From positions 56,305 to 120,304 of the forward strand of contig JBIKWJ010000001.1 of the NCBI GenBank assembly GCA_044356325.1: a DNA stretch of 64,000 nucleotides, in the 5' to 3' direction. The DNA comes from Minisyncoccia bacterium. Lineage in GTDB: Bacteria > Patescibacteriota > Minisyncoccia > SW-4-49-11. The position numbers and the translations under genes were made by a program. The notes below the pieces were generated by a model. The model ran no database searches. It was not told where the DNA came from and saw nothing but the letters and a program-made list of their open reading frames with translations. Shown here one piece after another: positions 42,124-63,978 of this stretch (the first letter of the stretch is position 1; the number at the start of each line of letters is the position of its first letter).

Positions 42124-42417
42124 TTGTGAGATGGGGAGATAGTAGACCAAACAGATTACTATACATTGCTAGCCTAAGGACCCTAGCTTGTCACAAAAAT
42201 TGTCCTCCTTTGCCTGCCTGCGGTAGGCAGGGAGGAGGTGGCCGTCAGGCCGGAGGTGGATAGAGTTCAAGTTTGTATATTATCCACCCCCGCCTTTCAG
42301 ACTCCCCCCTCCAAAGGGGGATAAAAGTAATAATTCTTTTGTTACGACAACATATGCTACCTTAAGGTCGCCCCTACACAAATCTCATTTTGTCTATGAT
42401 GTATCTCATCTTATTCA
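42124..42417. repeat. GC-rich MITE-like element, copy C.
   Basis: Nearly identical to copy E at 57708-58003. The right TIR is ...gtaggggcgacctt...tgtctatgatgtatctcatcttattca and the left TIR is tttgtgagatggggagatagtagacc. The core contains ttgcctgcctgcggtaggcagggaggaggtggccgtcaggccggaggtgga. Confidence 0.7.
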
Positions 42418-59387: not shown

Positions 59388-59404
59388 ATAATTTGTTATT
59401 AGTT

Positions 59405-59732
59405 GGCTTTATCATTCTCTAAATGCTTTGTTCGAATGCAGGGACTCGGTCACAAGTAATTTACCTGACGGTAAATTCTCGCTACCCCGTCTCGCCGTGT
59501 TCGCCTTGCGCATAGCACAAACTCACACATGGCTCCGACTTTCTCGCCCTGACTAAAGCCAATAAATTGGCTTTATCATTCTCTCGCTTCGCTGTTCGAA
59601 TGCAGGGACTCGGTCACAAGTAATTTACCTGACGGTAAATTCTCGCTACCCCGTCTCGCCGTGTTCGCCTTGCGCATAGCACAAACTCACACATGGCTCC
59701 GACTTTCTCGCCCTGACTAAAGCCAATAAATT
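59405..59732 (-). repeat. Two tandem copies of a 164 bp unit. Each unit contains an 18 nt duplicate of the tRNA-Gln 3' end plus a 9 bp-stem hairpin.
   Basis: Unit 1 (59405-59568) and unit 2 (59569-59732) are identical except for the 10 nt aaatgctttg versus cgcttcgctg. Each contains ttcgaatgcagggactcg, which is the tRNA-Gln 3' end. A third partial unit merges into the real tRNA. Confidence 0.7.
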
Positions 59733-59758
59733 GGCTTTATCATTCTCTCGCTTCGCTG

Positions 59759-59829
59759 TTCGAATGCAGGGACTCGAACCCCAATTGCTGGTGCCAGAAA
59801 CCAGTGTCCTACCGTTAGACGACATTCGA
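59759..59829 (-). tRNA. tRNA-Gln (anticodon CTG).
   Basis: Reverse complement is TCGAATGTCGTCTAACGGTAGGACACTGGTTTCTGGCACCAGCAATTGGGGTTCGAGTCCCTGCATTCGAA. It has the U1:A72 pair typical of tRNA-Gln, and the anticodon loop is TTCTGGC. Confidence 0.75.
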
Positions 59830-61540: not shown

Positions 61541-62038
61541 TTATCTCACCAAACTCTCTATATAATTCTCTCTATTTTGTATGGACAAAATAACCTGCCC
61601 AACTACTCCGTCCATTGCTTTTTTGATTGCTATATCCTCAAAATGCACTATTTCTAAATGTAAACTTTTCAGGAAATTTTCTCTTATTAGATCATATTCC
61701 CCTTTATCATTATGACTATCTCCATCTATTTCGAATACTAAACCTAATTCAGGGATCAAAAAGTCTACAATATAATTTCCTATTATAACTTGTCTATCTA
61801 TATCATAGCCTAATAGTTTTTTGTCCTTAAACGCAAGCCAAAATAATACTTCTGACAATACACCTGCTTGCCTTAATTCTTTTGCTTTAGTTTTAAGTCT
61901 GGGATTCTTTGGTAATTTAGAGTAATTATATTTCCACCCCGTCTTTGTTTCACAAAGCCACCCCTCAAGAGGGGAATTTTTTAATTTCATAATTTTATTA
62001 TATCTCAAATAAAGTATATCATAAGTTTTATTATACAT
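61541..62038 (-). CDS. DUF559 (Vsr-like endonuclease fold) domain protein.
   Basis: 165 aa. ...LRQAGVLSEVLFWLAFKDKKLLGYDIDRQVIIGNYIVDFLIPELGLVFEIDGDSHNDKGEYDLIRENFLKSLHLEIVHFEDIAI... matches the DUF559 pattern. Confidence 0.6.
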   Translation of the reverse strand: MYNKTYDILYLRYNKIMKLKNSPLEGWLCETKTGWKYNYSKLPKNPRLKTKAKELRQAGVLSEVLFWLAFKDKKLLGYDIDRQVIIGNYIVDFLIPELGLVFEIDGDSHNDKGEYDLIRENFLKSLHLEIVHFEDIAIKKAMDGVVGQVILSIQNRENYIESLVR

Positions 62039-62059: not shown

Positions 62060-62325
62060 GTGGAATTTTGGTCTTGCAACATTCCCCTCTTGAGGGGTAC
62101 CGTCGGTAGACGGTGGGGTGGAGTATTTTGCAACTTGAATTTCTGTCTCCCTTCCTGCCTACCGCAGGCAGGTGGAGGGAGTACCCGCAAGGGGGAGGGT
62201 GGATAAAGTTTAATCTACAAATCTTATGTAAGAATTTTAATCTAATTATATTGTGCTAGCAATCCACCTCCGGCACGTTGTGCCACCTCCTCCCTGCCTA
62301 CCGCAGGCAGGCAAAGGAGGACAAA
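62060..62325. repeat. GC-rich interspersed repeat, copy G (rearranged, no TIRs).
   Basis: Carries the ttcccctcttgaggggtaccgtcg...ggtggggtggagtatttt module shared with copy A. It has two copies of cctgcctaccgcaggcagg. Its terminal section is the reverse complement of the copy C/E core (ttgtcctcctttgcctgcctgcggtaggcagggaggaggtgg). Confidence 0.55.
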
Positions 62326-62392
62326 ATAAGTATCATTAAAATATCTCCCTTTTGAAAGAATGGCCAGAGGGGGATTTTTTAGCCCCATAATT

Positions 62393-62905
62393 TTATACTT
62401 TTGACCTAATTTGATCTAAATAGGTATTCAATGCTTTATAAAACTTGCCATTGATTGTTAAGTCTTCCAAAAATGCTTCCTCATAATTATCAAAATTCAT
62501 TATATCTGCACTGGCACTGACATCTAATATTTCAATCGATTTTACAGCTGGTTTAGTATCTGAGATTCCATCCCAAGAATTTATACTGAATATTCTAGTA
62601 AGCCCAATATCCCAAGTAGGATCTAAGATAATCCATTTATTATTTATCAAGACCTCTAGCCAAACATGTTCTCCACTATCATTATGTTCAGCTTTCATTA
62701 CCTCCTCTGGAATATTTAACTGACTCCACAAAAATGTACATATTCTATATCTACATTCTAAACATTCTGCTTCTAATAACTTTTTTAATAATTCAACTTT
62801 ATACAAACAACTCCCGCCATGCTCCCCCCCCTTTGTCTCATCCAAGGCTAAGGGTATTCTATAAGGTATATCTCGAACTTGATTAAAAATTTCTATTAAA
62901 GTCAT
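62393..62905 (-). CDS. Transglutaminase-like cysteine peptidase domain protein.
   Basis: 170 aa with the putative triad context GGSCLYK ... GEHVWLEV ... ILDPTWD (Cys, His, Asp). It overlaps the upstream gene by 4 bp. Confidence 0.5.
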   Translation of the reverse strand: MTLIEIFNQVRDIPYRIPLALDETKGGEHGGSCLYKVELLKKLLEAECLECRYRICTFLWSQLNIPEEVMKAEHNDSGEHVWLEVLINNKWIILDPTWDIGLTRIFSINSWDGISDTKPAVKSIEILDVSASADIMNFDNYEEAFLEDLTINGKFYKALNTYLDQIRSKV

Positions 62906-63471
62906 AATGTGATTTTCTTTATTATAATATCATCGGGGTCAAGATATAATCTGCCTATTCTATAATCAGCATAACCTTCTGGTCTGTTATTATTCACGGC
63001 ATATTTACCTTCTGGAGGATTTGGTATATTATGCACAGTTTTGAATTGGTTATATAACATTACACTTCTATCTAAGTTATAATGTTCATGATAATAACTA
63101 GCTGGACCTTTTATCTGATGATGTACAAAGACTTCCCAATTAATTTGGTCTGGTATAAATTCTATATATGGACCATGGTCTCCATAAACCACTCTCTCAT
63201 AGCCTATAGCTAAAATTTTTCCATTTTTATCATAAAATATAAATTCATTTGACCCTTTTTCTGGTAAATTATATTCTTTTTCTATCCTCTGACGGTCTCG
63301 CTCACGATTAGGAGTATCTACTGTAGACTTCCATTTTGTAGATTTTGGCAACATTTCGGGTAAATCCATCCCAACCGCCTGCCAAGACTGAGATAATAAT
63401 TTATCAAATTCCTCTTTAGATGTATTTTCTAGCTCAATGTAGAATTTGTGTGGATTTGGAGTATTTTCCAT
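62902..63471 (-). CDS. Hypothetical protein, translationally coupled to the transglutaminase-like gene.
   Basis: 189 aa with no recognisable family. Confidence 0.4.
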   Translation of the reverse strand: MENTPNPHKFYIELENTSKEEFDKLLSQSWQAVGMDLPEMLPKSTKWKSTVDTPNRERDRQRIEKEYNLPEKGSNEFIFYDKNGKILAIGYERVVYGDHGPYIEFIPDQINWEVFVHHQIKGPASYYHEHYNLDRSVMLYNQFKTVHNIPNPPEGKYAVNNNRPEGYADYRIGRLYLDPDDIIIKKITL

Positions 63472-63601
63472 AACAATATTACAATATAATTATTTCATAT
63501 AATATAGCATATTTTAGACAACATAATAAATGGTTATTATATTTTGTAATATCATATCGTTTTATAGACCCCATAATAATACATAAGTTTGTAAGTGTAT
63601 A

Positions 63602-63630
63602 TTGACATTTTTAATAATTTATGATATAAT
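63602..63630 (+). promoter_or_regulatory. Consensus sigma70 promoter.
   Basis: TTGACA (63602-07), a 17 nt spacer, then TATAAT (63625-30). Confidence 0.5.
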
Positions 63631-63645
63631 TGTTTTCGTAAAGTT

Positions 63646-63978
63646 TTGAGGCACTTCAAGATGTATTCAAAAGAGCCCATCGGTAATTTGGACGGTATGT
63701 CCGAAGAACCATTGGGGAACCTTGATCACAGACCAAGCCAACATGAAACTCTGAGGGAGGTGCTCAGCGAAGGGCCATGCACACCTTATGAGTTAGCCCA
63801 GAAATTGTGCTTTAAACCTGGATTCCCCGATTTTAAGATGACCCAAACATGGTTGTCACAATTTCTGGAAATTGAGATCCCAAACGAGTATACAGGTATT
63901 GTCGTTCTCATAGGAGATTGGGTCCGAGTAGCTACAGTTACTCGGGCTATTCTCCTTCAGGATCGTCCACAGGATTAG
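63646..63978 (+). CDS. Hypothetical protein encoded in a GC-elevated segment (about 47%), with an internal duplicated motif.
   Basis: 110 aa by the track, or 105 aa from the ATG at 63661. It contains EPIGNLDG and EPLGNLDH repeats and is driven by the consensus promoter above. Confidence 0.35.
   Translation: MRHFKMYSKEPIGNLDGMSEEPLGNLDHRPSQHETLREVLSEGPCTPYELAQKLCFKPGFPDFKMTQTWLSQFLEIEIPNEYTGIVVLIGDWVRVATVTRAILLQDRPQD

What the first reader, a model, noticed from the sequence alone, without database searches (positions are those of the whole stretch)
62393..63471. Translationally coupled pair: unknown 189 aa protein plus a transglutaminase-like cysteine peptidase, bracketed by a MITE and a consensus promoter
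The two ORFs overlap by 4 bp (ATGA). The downstream protein has the Cys-His-Asp context of transglutaminase-like peptidases (GGSCLYK, GEHVWLEV, DPTWD). The upstream protein is unrecognisable. Such small transglutaminase-like modules often occur in toxin or effector and immunity pairs or in cell-wall and peptide maturation. The locus sits in an accessory-looking stretch with DUF559 endonuclease, HAD and LysM genes and three repeat fragments. It lies next to a GC-elevated gene (63646-63978) with its own consensus promoter.
Basis: partly seen in the sequence, partly recalled or inferred. Interest (0 to 1): 0.5.

Follow-up and report, generated by a model that had tools for sequence, protein, structure and literature searches.

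The report
Unnamed nucleotide-linked domain paired with thiol enzyme
Two overlapping genes in a tiny symbiotic (CPR) bacterium encode parts that are fused into one protein in sister strains: a transglutaminase-like thiol enzyme and a member of a large, unnamed, strongly conserved protein family otherwise found in uncultured phages and dinoflagellates beside nucleotide- and NAD-handling enzymes.

Summary
ORFs 62902-63471(-), 189 aa, and 62393-62905(-), 170 aa, overlap by ATGA, and both are under purifying selection (dN/dS 0.13-0.29).

The 170 aa protein is a minimal transglutaminase/papain-fold enzyme. Its Cys33-His80-Asp95 triad is invariant, and its family was found only in Patescibacteria, normally standalone.

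The 189 aa protein matches nothing in Pfam, NCBIfam, PHROGs, PADLOC or PDB sequences. It nonetheless belongs to a large family (1228 clusters at 50% identity). That family occurs in uncultured, often very large, phages, including giant multidomain phage ORFs, and in dinoflagellates. It has 16 invariant residues, no cysteine, and only a weak resemblance to the beta-tent fold. Its fusion partners and phage neighbours are nucleotide, NAD/ADP-ribose and RNA-repair enzymes.

The pairing exists only in the window's close Paceibacteria clade. There it also occurs as a two-domain fusion, a GNAT-tipped three-domain fusion, and once with the 189 aa gene broken by a stop. That supports one cooperating cytoplasmic enzyme and argues against a toxin-immunity pair.

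The consensus promoter is on the opposite strand and serves an orphan ORF. The repeats are real, and the locus sits just downstream of the 23S-5S rRNA genes.

Biochemical function is inferred only. Interest is moderate.

The parts
62902..63471 (-). Gene for the 189 aa protein ('A1' domain). Residues 1-49 are an N-terminal strand-helix extension; residues ~50-189 are the conserved core.
   Evidence: ORF. 249 homologues. 1228 clusters at 50% identity. No hit in Pfam, NCBIfam, PADLOC, PHROGs or PDB sequences. AF2 pLDDT 95.9. dN/dS 0.13-0.21.
63166..63183 (-). Codons for the G97-D98-H99-G100-P101-Y102 signature of the A1 family, a candidate active-site motif.
   Evidence: G97, D98, H99 and Y102 are invariant and G100 and P101 nearly invariant in 81 sequences. 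Codons read directly.
62393..62905 (-). Gene for the 170 aa transglutaminase-like (papain-fold) Cys-His-Asp enzyme with a C-terminal helical hairpin.
62807..62809 (-). Codon of the catalytic Cys33.
   Evidence: Invariant in 37 homologues. Codon TGT read.
62666..62668 (-). Codon of the catalytic His80.
   Evidence: Invariant. Codon CAT read.
62621..62623 (-). Codon of the catalytic Asp95.
   Evidence: Invariant. Codon GAT read.
62902..62905 (-). ATGA stop/start overlap, the junction between the two genes.
   Evidence: The same junction is in L050. It is TGA-tt-ATG in L001 and an in-frame fusion in L039, L048 and L051.
63480..63549 (-). Conserved 5' leader and probable promoter region of the pair.
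   Evidence: 92-96% identical to the sequence immediately upstream of the start codon in L039, L048, L051 and L052. Contains the weak minus-strand match ATTACA-16-TATTAT at 63550->63523.
63602..63630 (+). Perfect sigma-70-type promoter (12 of 12, with TG). It belongs to the divergent orphan ORF, not to the pair.
63646..63978 (+). GC-elevated (46%) orphan ORF of 110 aa (called as 105 aa elsewhere), lying between the pair and the 5S rRNA gene.
   Evidence: Only one relative among 5.8 billion proteins. Absent from all related loci. Weak MarR-like match E=0.04.
62060..62390 (.). Two GC-rich nested-hairpin repeat units (REP/MITE-like) between the pair and DUF559.
   Evidence: The core palindrome occurs at 62154 and 62293 and at five other places in the window.
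61541..62038 (-). DUF559 endonuclease-like gene downstream. Syntenic in some relatives but not part of the module.
   Evidence: Pfam E=3e-21. Present in L001, L050 and L067. No match to it was found in L039.

Best explanation
The two genes encode the two halves of one cytoplasmic enzyme. The upstream 189 aa protein (called A1 here) is an uncharacterised, probably catalytic, domain that recognises or processes a nucleotide-, ribose- or NAD/ADP-ribose-derived group. The downstream 170 aa protein is a thiol enzyme with a Cys-His-Asp triad that hydrolyses or transfers an amide- or thioester-linked acyl or peptidyl group on the same substrate. In sister strains a GNAT acyltransferase is added at the N-terminus, which points to a substrate carrying a free amine.

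The A1 domain most likely entered this Paceibacteria lineage by horizontal transfer. In phages it sits in giant multidomain ORFs and in nucleotide-metabolism gene clusters. In this lineage it was joined to a resident Patescibacteria transglutaminase-like gene.

Shown: gene structure, coupling, fusion in relatives, purifying selection, the catalytic triad, the fold class of the thiol enzyme, and the family distribution and domain and neighbour associations of A1.

Inferred: that A1 is an enzyme, that its ligand is nucleotide-derived, that the two halves act on one substrate, and the direction of transfer.
For: Physical link:
- ATGA overlap.
- In-frame A1-transglutaminase-like fusions: P0002/P0003 (321 aa) and L051/L052 (361-codon stop-to-stop ORF).
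- GNAT-A1-transglutaminase-like fusions of 537 aa in L039 (a Paceibacteria MAG), with the same fused ORF in L048 and a contig-truncated copy in L049.
- A1 lies next to the transglutaminase-like gene in every close relative recovered.

Both halves are functional:
- dN/dS is 0.13-0.29.
- The identical protein is on at least 10 contigs.

Thiol enzyme:
- C33, H80 and D95 are invariant.
- The model is confident.

A1 is enzyme-like:
- 16 invariant and 15 nearly invariant positions, rich in R, D, E, H, Q, N and Y, across phage, bacterial and dinoflagellate members that are only about 40% identical.
- pLDDT 96.

Nucleotide, NAD and RNA association of A1:
- Fusions to DUF4326, YpsA-type SLOG/DprA, NADAR, adenosine deaminase, AlkB-type 2OG oxygenase, cold-shock domain, DCD, tRNA_edit, pseudouridine synthase and HIRAN.
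- Immediate phage neighbours are nucleoside 2-deoxyribosyltransferase-like proteins, DHH/DHHA1, RlaP, GMP reductase/IMPDH, a cytidylyltransferase-like protein joined to a dephospho-CoA-kinase-like domain, dCMP deaminase and NADAR.
- PMC9503650 and PMC7824862 place DUF4326, SLOG and NADAR fusions in ADP-ribose-derivative processing by phages.

Both proteins are soluble, with no signal peptide or membrane segment.
Against: - The association with the transglutaminase-like gene is confined to one narrow clade. It is absent from 23 distant transglutaminase-like loci and from all phage A1 loci. It may therefore be a recent, lineage-specific invention whose logic cannot be read from the wider families.
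- In L001-L003 A1 carries an in-frame TAA, and G100 is replaced by S, while the transglutaminase-like gene is intact. The thiol enzyme can therefore persist without A1.
- Phage neighbours are heterogeneous. No partner occurs in more than 4 of about 29 loci.
Confidence: 0.4

Rival explanations
1. Toxin/effector plus immunity pair. The transglutaminase-like protein is a toxic deamidase or peptidase and the 189 aa protein neutralises it, or the reverse.
For: - Small overlapping gene pair in a variable, repeat-rich region.
Against: - The partners are fused in frame in several relatives.
- PADLOC gives no credible hit.
- There are no secretion signals.
- A1 is pseudogenised in L001-L003 while the transglutaminase-like gene stays intact and conserved.
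- Transglutaminase-like homologues are normally standalone with no recurrent neighbour.
- A1 occurs in hundreds of phage and eukaryotic contexts without any transglutaminase-like partner. Its conservation pattern looks like an enzyme, not a fast-evolving immunity protein.
Confidence: 0.07
2. Cell-wall or peptide-processing module. The thiol enzyme is an endo-isopeptidase or amidase like PeiW, and A1 is a non-catalytic substrate-binding domain. This would fit the nearby LysM protein.
For: - A LysM protein lies 1.7 kb away.
Against: - Neither protein has a signal peptide or membrane anchor.
- The LysM, HAD and DUF559 genes are not kept next to the pair in L039.
- All A1 associations are with nucleotide, NAD or nucleic-acid enzymes, and none is with wall enzymes.
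Confidence: 0.12
3. The window carries a recently frameshifted, decaying copy of an ancestrally fused gene. The 'pair' would then be a pseudogene in progress, and only one half, or neither, still works.
For: - The 95%-identical relative L048 has a fused GNAT-A1-transglutaminase-like ORF. The window differs by frame at the junction and lacks the GNAT segment.
- A1 is clearly broken in L001-L003.
Against: - The split form keeps a clean ATGA stop/start with an ATG start.
- The more divergent L050 (78-86% aa identity) has the same junction.
- The split form is identical on at least 10 contigs from several samples.
- Both halves show dN/dS of 0.13-0.29, and all invariant family residues are intact.
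Confidence: 0.1
4. A1 is a nucleotide salvage or metabolism enzyme with no conflict role. Its link to the thiol enzyme would serve the CPR bacterium's scavenging of host-derived nucleotides or cofactors.
For: - Phage neighbours include salvage-type enzymes: nucleoside deoxyribosyltransferase-like, dCMP deaminase, GMP reductase/IMPDH, and a cytidylyltransferase-like protein joined to a dephospho-CoA-kinase-like domain.
- There is a dinoflagellate fusion to adenosine deaminase.
- From general knowledge, CPR bacteria lack much of de novo nucleotide synthesis.
Against: - Presence inside giant multidomain phage ORFs with DUF4326, SLOG and HIRAN fits counter-defence better than housekeeping. These ORFs resemble the injected 'polyvalent proteins' described in PMC5512222.
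- The gene is dispensable in L001-L003.
Confidence: 0.2

Closest known systems
Transglutaminase-like / papain-fold thiol enzymes (Pfam PF01841 Transglut_core; structural neighbours PeiW/PeiP, LapG-type BTLCP, arylamine N-acetyltransferases)
Beta-tent fold domains (Mis18/Yippee, MsrB, cereblon CULT, Mss4, RIG-I C-terminal domain, DUF427)
   Different: The window protein has no cysteine at all, and no cysteine is conserved in the family, so the fold's usual zinc site is absent. A1 has an extra N-terminal helix and a long conserved loop (residues 143-174). There is no sequence similarity. The similarity is too weak to claim homology.
Phage ADP-ribose/NAD-derivative-processing domain sets (DUF4326 rhodanese-phosphatase, SLOG/YpsA, NADAR, Macro) and phage polyvalent proteins (Iyer et al., PMC9503650, PMC7824862, PMC5512222)
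   Same: A1 lies in the same polypeptides. Examples are DUF4326-A1-YpsA in a 2266-codon (stop-to-stop) phage ORF, YpsA-A1-HIRAN in a 2189-codon ORF, and NADAR fusions. It also sits in the same kind of phage gene clusters.
   Different: A1 itself is not named in the text searches I ran on the three papers I could read. It is in none of the libraries searched. The window's version is chromosomal in a CPR bacterium and is joined to a thiol enzyme, a combination not seen in phages.
Type II toxin-antitoxin or effector-immunity gene pairs
   Same: A small two-gene operon with overlapping stop and start, in a variable region.
   Different: The partners fuse into one chain. No known toxin or antitoxin family matches. 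Either partner occurs widely without the other.

Membership tests
Transglutaminase-like superfamily (PF01841 / papain-like clan) | Catalytic Cys, His and Asp in that order, conserved across the family | tested here: met
   C33, H80 and D95 are invariant in 37 homologues. Codons verified.
Transglutaminase-like superfamily (PF01841 / papain-like clan) | Profile match at or above Pfam's gathering score | tested here: inconclusive
   The window protein scores 20.7 bits against a cut-off of 23, E=5e-4. The fused relative L039 scores 23.3 bits, and 12 of the 15 closest homologue clusters carry a precomputed PF01841 hit.
Transglutaminase-like superfamily (PF01841 / papain-like clan) | Papain/transglutaminase core fold | tested here: met
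Beta-tent fold families (Yippee/Mis18, MsrB, CULT) | Two CxxC-type pairs forming a structural zinc site | tested here: not met
   The 189 aa protein has no cysteine, and no cysteine is among the conserved columns.
Beta-tent fold families (Yippee/Mis18, MsrB, CULT) | Clear structural superposition on the two-sheet 'tent' | tested here: inconclusive
Toxin-antitoxin / effector-immunity pair | Match of either partner to a known toxin, antitoxin or defence family | tested here: not met
   PADLOC gives only a KwaB match at E=0.017, and Pfam and NCBIfam give none.
Toxin-antitoxin / effector-immunity pair | The two partners are kept as separate adjacent genes wherever either occurs | tested here: not met
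   Fused in L039, L048, L049, L051, L052 and P0002/3. A1 is pseudogenised in L001-3. 23 distant transglutaminase-like loci lack A1 and 30+ phage A1 loci lack the transglutaminase-like gene.
Toxin-antitoxin / effector-immunity pair | Toxicity of one partner relieved by the other | not testable with these tools
   Needs expression experiments.
Phage polyvalent-protein / NAD-ADPr-processing domain repertoire | The domain occurs as a module inside giant multidomain phage proteins and fuses to DUF4326, SLOG or NADAR | tested here: met
   This holds for the A1 family: L015/L016, L020, L034, P0167, P0168 and P0198. The window's own copy is not in a phage.
Phage polyvalent-protein / NAD-ADPr-processing domain repertoire | Activity on NAD/ADP-ribose derivatives | not testable with these tools
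   Needs biochemistry. Only contextual inference is available.

The most novel reading that the evidence does not exclude
A1 is the founding member of an undescribed enzyme superfamily. It would be a zinc-less derivative of a beta-tent-like fold with a GDHGPY..E / PNPP / NR.EGYADY active site. It would act on nucleotide- or ADP-ribose-derived molecules or nucleic-acid ends. Phages would use it in injected polyvalent proteins as a counter-defence activity, and dinoflagellates would have acquired and expanded it. This CPR lineage would have captured it and welded it to a thiol hydrolase or transferase, and in some strains a GNAT, creating a new multi-step pathway for a conjugated nucleotide.
Probability: 0.25. 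Interest if true: 0.7.

Novelty: new variant of a known kind. Interest (0 to 1): 0.45.

Why it matters
The thiol enzyme on its own is an ordinary member of a known superfamily. The value lies in its partner, a compact and exceptionally conserved domain.

- It has 1228 clusters at 50% identity and is in no curated library searched here.
- It has no solved relative.
- It sits inside giant multidomain phage ORFs next to domains now being linked to evasion of NAD- and nucleotide-based immunity. It is also spread through dinoflagellate genomes.

The Paceibacteria locus offers natural split, fused and GNAT-extended versions of the same module. That gives a ready-made handle for working out what the domain does and which chemistry it is coupled to. 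If it is an enzyme of nucleotide-signal or ADP-ribose processing, it would add a new activity to the phage counter-defence repertoire. It would also be an example of such a module being domesticated by an episymbiotic bacterium.

Tried and rejected
Searches with the 189 aa protein that found nothing:
- Pfam, NCBIfam, PADLOC, PHROGs, PDB sequence profiles, and tblastn against 50,697 deposited phage genomes.
- BFVD gave one uncharacterised relative from an uncultured phage.
- A full-text search for the motif YGDHGPY found no paper.

Resources I could not use:
- The AFDB50 fold library was unavailable.
- Burroughs & Aravind 2023 on the rhodanese-phosphatase superfamily and DUF4326 is not held. 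It might name this domain.

Ideas considered and dropped:
- The ARPP domain of PMC9503650 as a candidate identity. It is defined by a conserved Cys and Gln, and A1 has no Cys.
- A conserved partner for distant transglutaminase-like genes. None recurs.
- Transglutaminase-like genes near phage A1 genes. None was found, even at E=10. A C93-like peptidase 2.4 kb from A1 in one very large phage contig is a different family.
- Programmed -1 frameshifting across the junction to remake the fusion. There is no slippery heptamer between the upstream TAA in the transglutaminase-like frame and the TGA (read).
- A non-standard genetic code in the window. ORFs are long and contiguous under table 11. Two distant homologues, however, clearly use TGA as a sense codon at conserved Gly positions.
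- The first genome scan with the full alignment failed for lack of a conserved block. It was repeated with a subset.
Full report
**1. What is in the sequence**

They are 62902-63471 (189 aa) and 62393-62905 (170 aa), sharing the four bases ATGA. The surrounding genome is AT-rich, about 31% G+C.

The closest matches to the thiol enzyme are MAGs of Candidatus Paceibacteria, Gracilibacteria, Magasanikbacteria, Parcubacteria and Peribacteria. The window is therefore a Patescibacteria (CPR) chromosome, most likely Paceibacteria.

The identical 189 aa protein is on at least 10 metagenomic contigs of up to 252 kb. On those contigs the pair lies just downstream of the 23S and 5S rRNA genes, on the same strand. 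Only an orphan ORF on the opposite strand separates them.

Downstream lie GC-rich repeats, then DUF559, HAD, LysM, tRNA-Gln, DUF1003, a glutaminyl cyclase-like gene and RuvB. This is chromosomal housekeeping context, not a prophage.

**2. The 170 aa protein**

- Pfam Transglut_core matches weakly: E=5e-4, 20.7 bits against a 23-bit cut-off.
- Of 45 homologues, 44 are full-length at 38-99% identity and one is a weak outlier at 30% (E=1e-5). None of them is annotated.
- C33, H80 and D95 are invariant in the 37 homologues aligned.
- The AlphaFold model is confident (pLDDT 94.9).

It is therefore a minimal thiol hydrolase or acyltransferase of that superfamily. It carries a family-specific C-terminal helical hairpin.

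The family appears restricted to Patescibacteria. Two homologues (L061, L062) have in-frame TGA codons at conserved glycine positions, so the family reaches the code-25 lineages.

**3. The 189 aa protein ('A1')**

It matches nothing in Pfam, NCBIfam, PADLOC, PHROGs, PDB sequence profiles or deposited phage genomes. It is not an orphan, though. There are 249 homologues in the 90% clusters and 1228 representatives at 50% identity, 759 of them below E=1e-10.

The conserved core is about 140 residues (50-189).
- Invariant: R56, E71, G97, D98, H99, Y102, E104, Y140, Q142, V146, P153, G166, Y167, A168, Y170 and Y176.
- Nearly invariant: T50, N55, D59, N151, P152, R163 and D169, among others.
- This level of polar conservation across members only about 40% identical suggests an enzyme.

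The model is very confident (pLDDT 95.9). The best PDB matches are beta-tent fold proteins: Mis18/Yippee 6.8, DUF427 5.8, MsrB 5.6, CULT 4.8, Mss4 4.6 and the RIG-I C-terminal domain 4.2. All are weak. A1 has no cysteine, so it lacks the zinc site of those families. I treat the beta-tent likeness as a lead, not a membership.

**4. Where the A1 family lives**

*Uncultured phages.*
- 28 IMG/VR loci carry it.
- One is a T4-like phage with a gp15-like tail-completion protein and a T4 portal.
- Others are 278-464 kb contigs of short, mostly unannotated genes, a contig with rIIB, and a contig with Tad3 and Volactin.
- In three phage lineages A1 is a module inside giant multidomain ORFs of the kind described as polyvalent proteins in PMC5512222 (sizes are stop-to-stop codon counts):
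  - DUF4326-A1-YpsA SLOG (2266 codons; L015/L016).
  - YpsA SLOG-A1-HIRAN (2189 codons; L020).
  - a 3416-codon ORF (L034).
- P0198 (2771 aa) again has A1 followed by HIRAN.

*Dinoflagellates.*
- Members come from Symbiodinium, Durusdinium, Effrenium, Fugacium and Polykrikos.
- These share the N-terminal strand-helix extension (residues about 9-35) with the CPR version.
- One is fused to adenosine deaminase.
- An AlkB-type oxygenase fusion (P0173) comes from short metagenome contigs whose organism is unknown.

*Other fusion partners* among 64 multidomain members are NADAR, cold-shock domain, DCD, tRNA_edit and pseudouridine synthase.

*Immediate phage neighbours* fall into recurrent arrangements:
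- DHH/DHHA1, then a nucleoside 2-deoxyribosyltransferase-like protein, then A1, then PolB (4 loci).
- RlaP, then an unknown 210 aa protein, then A1 (4 loci).
- Single cases with GMP reductase/IMPDH, a cytidylyltransferase-like protein fused to a dephospho-CoA-kinase-like domain, dCMP deaminase and NADAR.

Iyer et al. place DUF4326, SLOG and NADAR fusions in phage processing of ADP-ribose derivatives (PMC9503650, PMC7824862). A SLOG-type phage anti-Avs protein has homologues fused to DUF4326 (bioRxiv 10.1101/2025.06.06.658234).

The theme is consistently nucleotide, NAD/ADP-ribose or nucleic-acid ends. No single partner is universal.

**5. Is the pair a unit?**

Within the window's close clade the two parts are always together, in four states:
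- Separate with an ATGA overlap: the window and L050.
- Separate with TGA-tt-ATG, and with A1 broken by an in-frame TAA in three independent samples: L001-L003.
- A1 fused in frame to the transglutaminase-like domain: a 361-codon stop-to-stop ORF in L051/L052, and P0002/P0003, called as 321 aa.
- GNAT-A1-transglutaminase-like fusion: 537 aa in L039, the same fused ORF in L048, and a contig-truncated copy in L049. The GNAT match is E=1e-9.

DNA alignment bears on the GNAT segment. The window's leader (63480-63549) matches the sequence just upstream of the GNAT start codon in L039 and L048. The A1 coding sequence resumes after about 549 nt. The GNAT segment is therefore a clean cassette gain or loss at the N-terminus.

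Both halves are under purifying selection. dN/dS is 0.13-0.21 for A1 and 0.21-0.29 for the transglutaminase-like gene.

Their divergence from each relative is discordant. L051 is 87% identical in A1 but 69% in the transglutaminase-like part. L050 is 78% and 86%. This suggests recombination inside the locus.

Outside this clade the link disappears. None of 23 more distant transglutaminase-like loci has A1 within 5-6 kb or any recurrent neighbour. No phage A1 locus has the transglutaminase-like gene.

**6. Interpretation**

Repeated in-frame fusion of two adjacent, selected genes is the classic sign that they work together on one task. It argues against a toxin and its neutraliser. So do the lack of any defence or toxin-antitoxin family match, the lack of export signals, and the survival of the thiol enzyme where A1 is broken.

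My best reading (confidence 0.4) has three parts:
- The pair is a bipartite cytoplasmic enzyme.
- A1 handles a nucleotide-, ribose- or ADP-ribose-type group.
- The Cys-His-Asp domain cleaves or transfers an amide- or thioester-linked group on the same molecule. In some strains a GNAT adds amine acylation.

Candidate substrates would be aminoacyl- or peptidyl-nucleotides or ADP-ribosyl conjugates. That step is pure inference. The rivals and their weights are listed separately.

**7.

- The 'MITE' is a real dispersed family of GC-rich nested hairpins.
- The 'consensus promoter' is real but sits on the + strand. It drives the 46% G+C ORF at 63646-63978.
- That ORF has a single relative among 5.8 billion proteins and is missing from every related locus.

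**8. Novelty and score**

The thiol enzyme is a new small family within a known superfamily. A1 is, as far as I could check, an undescribed domain family of wide distribution. I could not read the one paper most likely to mention it. The specific A1 plus thiol enzyme (plus GNAT) combination is lineage-specific.

I rate it a new variant of a known kind, namely multidomain nucleotide-centred enzymes of phage-host conflict or salvage. Interest is 0.45, carried mainly by the A1 family rather than by this locus.

Noticed in passing
window 63646-63978 (+), promoter 63602-63630: Orphan 110 aa ORF at 46% G+C in a 31% G+C genome, with a perfect TTGACA-17-TATAAT promoter. It is wedged between the 5S rRNA gene and the pair. 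Only one relative exists among 5.8 billion proteins, and it is absent from all related loci. It has a weak MarR-like winged-helix match (E=0.04). It could be a strain-specific regulator, or not a protein gene at all.
   Followed up: partly
window 59398-59776, next to tRNA-Gln 59758-59829: Two full copies and one partial copy of a 164-nt tandem repeat (95% identical). The last unit runs into the tRNA-Gln gene. This may be a footprint of repeated integration or excision at the tRNA.
   Followed up: no
window 14259, 18720, 42213, 57799, 61474, 62154, 62293: Dispersed GC-rich palindrome CCTGCCTACCGCAGGCAGG inside longer nested hairpins. The copies at 42213, 57799 and 62293 share about 100 nt. It is a REP/MITE-like family in an AT-rich CPR genome. 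A second palindrome, TCCCCTCTTGAGGGGT, also occurs inside the 5' end of the DUF559 gene.
   Followed up: partly
L061 5058, 5127, 5436; L062 5127, 5286, 5400, 5439: Homologues of the transglutaminase-like gene carry in-frame TGA codons at positions where the family has conserved Gly (for example IN-G-KFY). These contigs therefore come from code-25 lineages (Gracilibacteria or Absconditabacteria), and standard gene callers split these genes.
   Followed up: partly
L067 3892-7184 and 7298-7405 (beyond the window's right end): The 23S rRNA match spans 3293 nt against a 2925-nt model, so the gene probably has an insertion or intron. No 16S gene lies directly upstream; a 194 aa ORF is there instead. 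Unlinked 16S and 23S genes are common in CPR.
   Followed up: no
L039 2862-4776 versus window 63472-63650: In the Paceibacteria MAG, the sequence matching the window's 63534-63651 lies 3 kb upstream of the fused gene. A Nudix-like gene, a second GNAT and a membrane protein are inserted between them. The region downstream of the rRNA operon is therefore a hotspot for gene gain and loss.
   Followed up: partly
L006 1722-3030: In one distant lineage the transglutaminase-like gene is tightly packed between a cytidylyltransferase-like gene (5-nt gap) and a 107 aa ORF (4-nt overlap). Cytidylyltransferase-like genes also flank A1 in two phage loci (L013, L028). This may be coincidence.
   Followed up: no
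L029 4072-5764: Three tandem paralogues of an unknown 187 aa protein lie immediately upstream of a phage A1 gene. That A1 gene is itself extended by an unannotated 200 aa C-terminal region.
   Followed up: no
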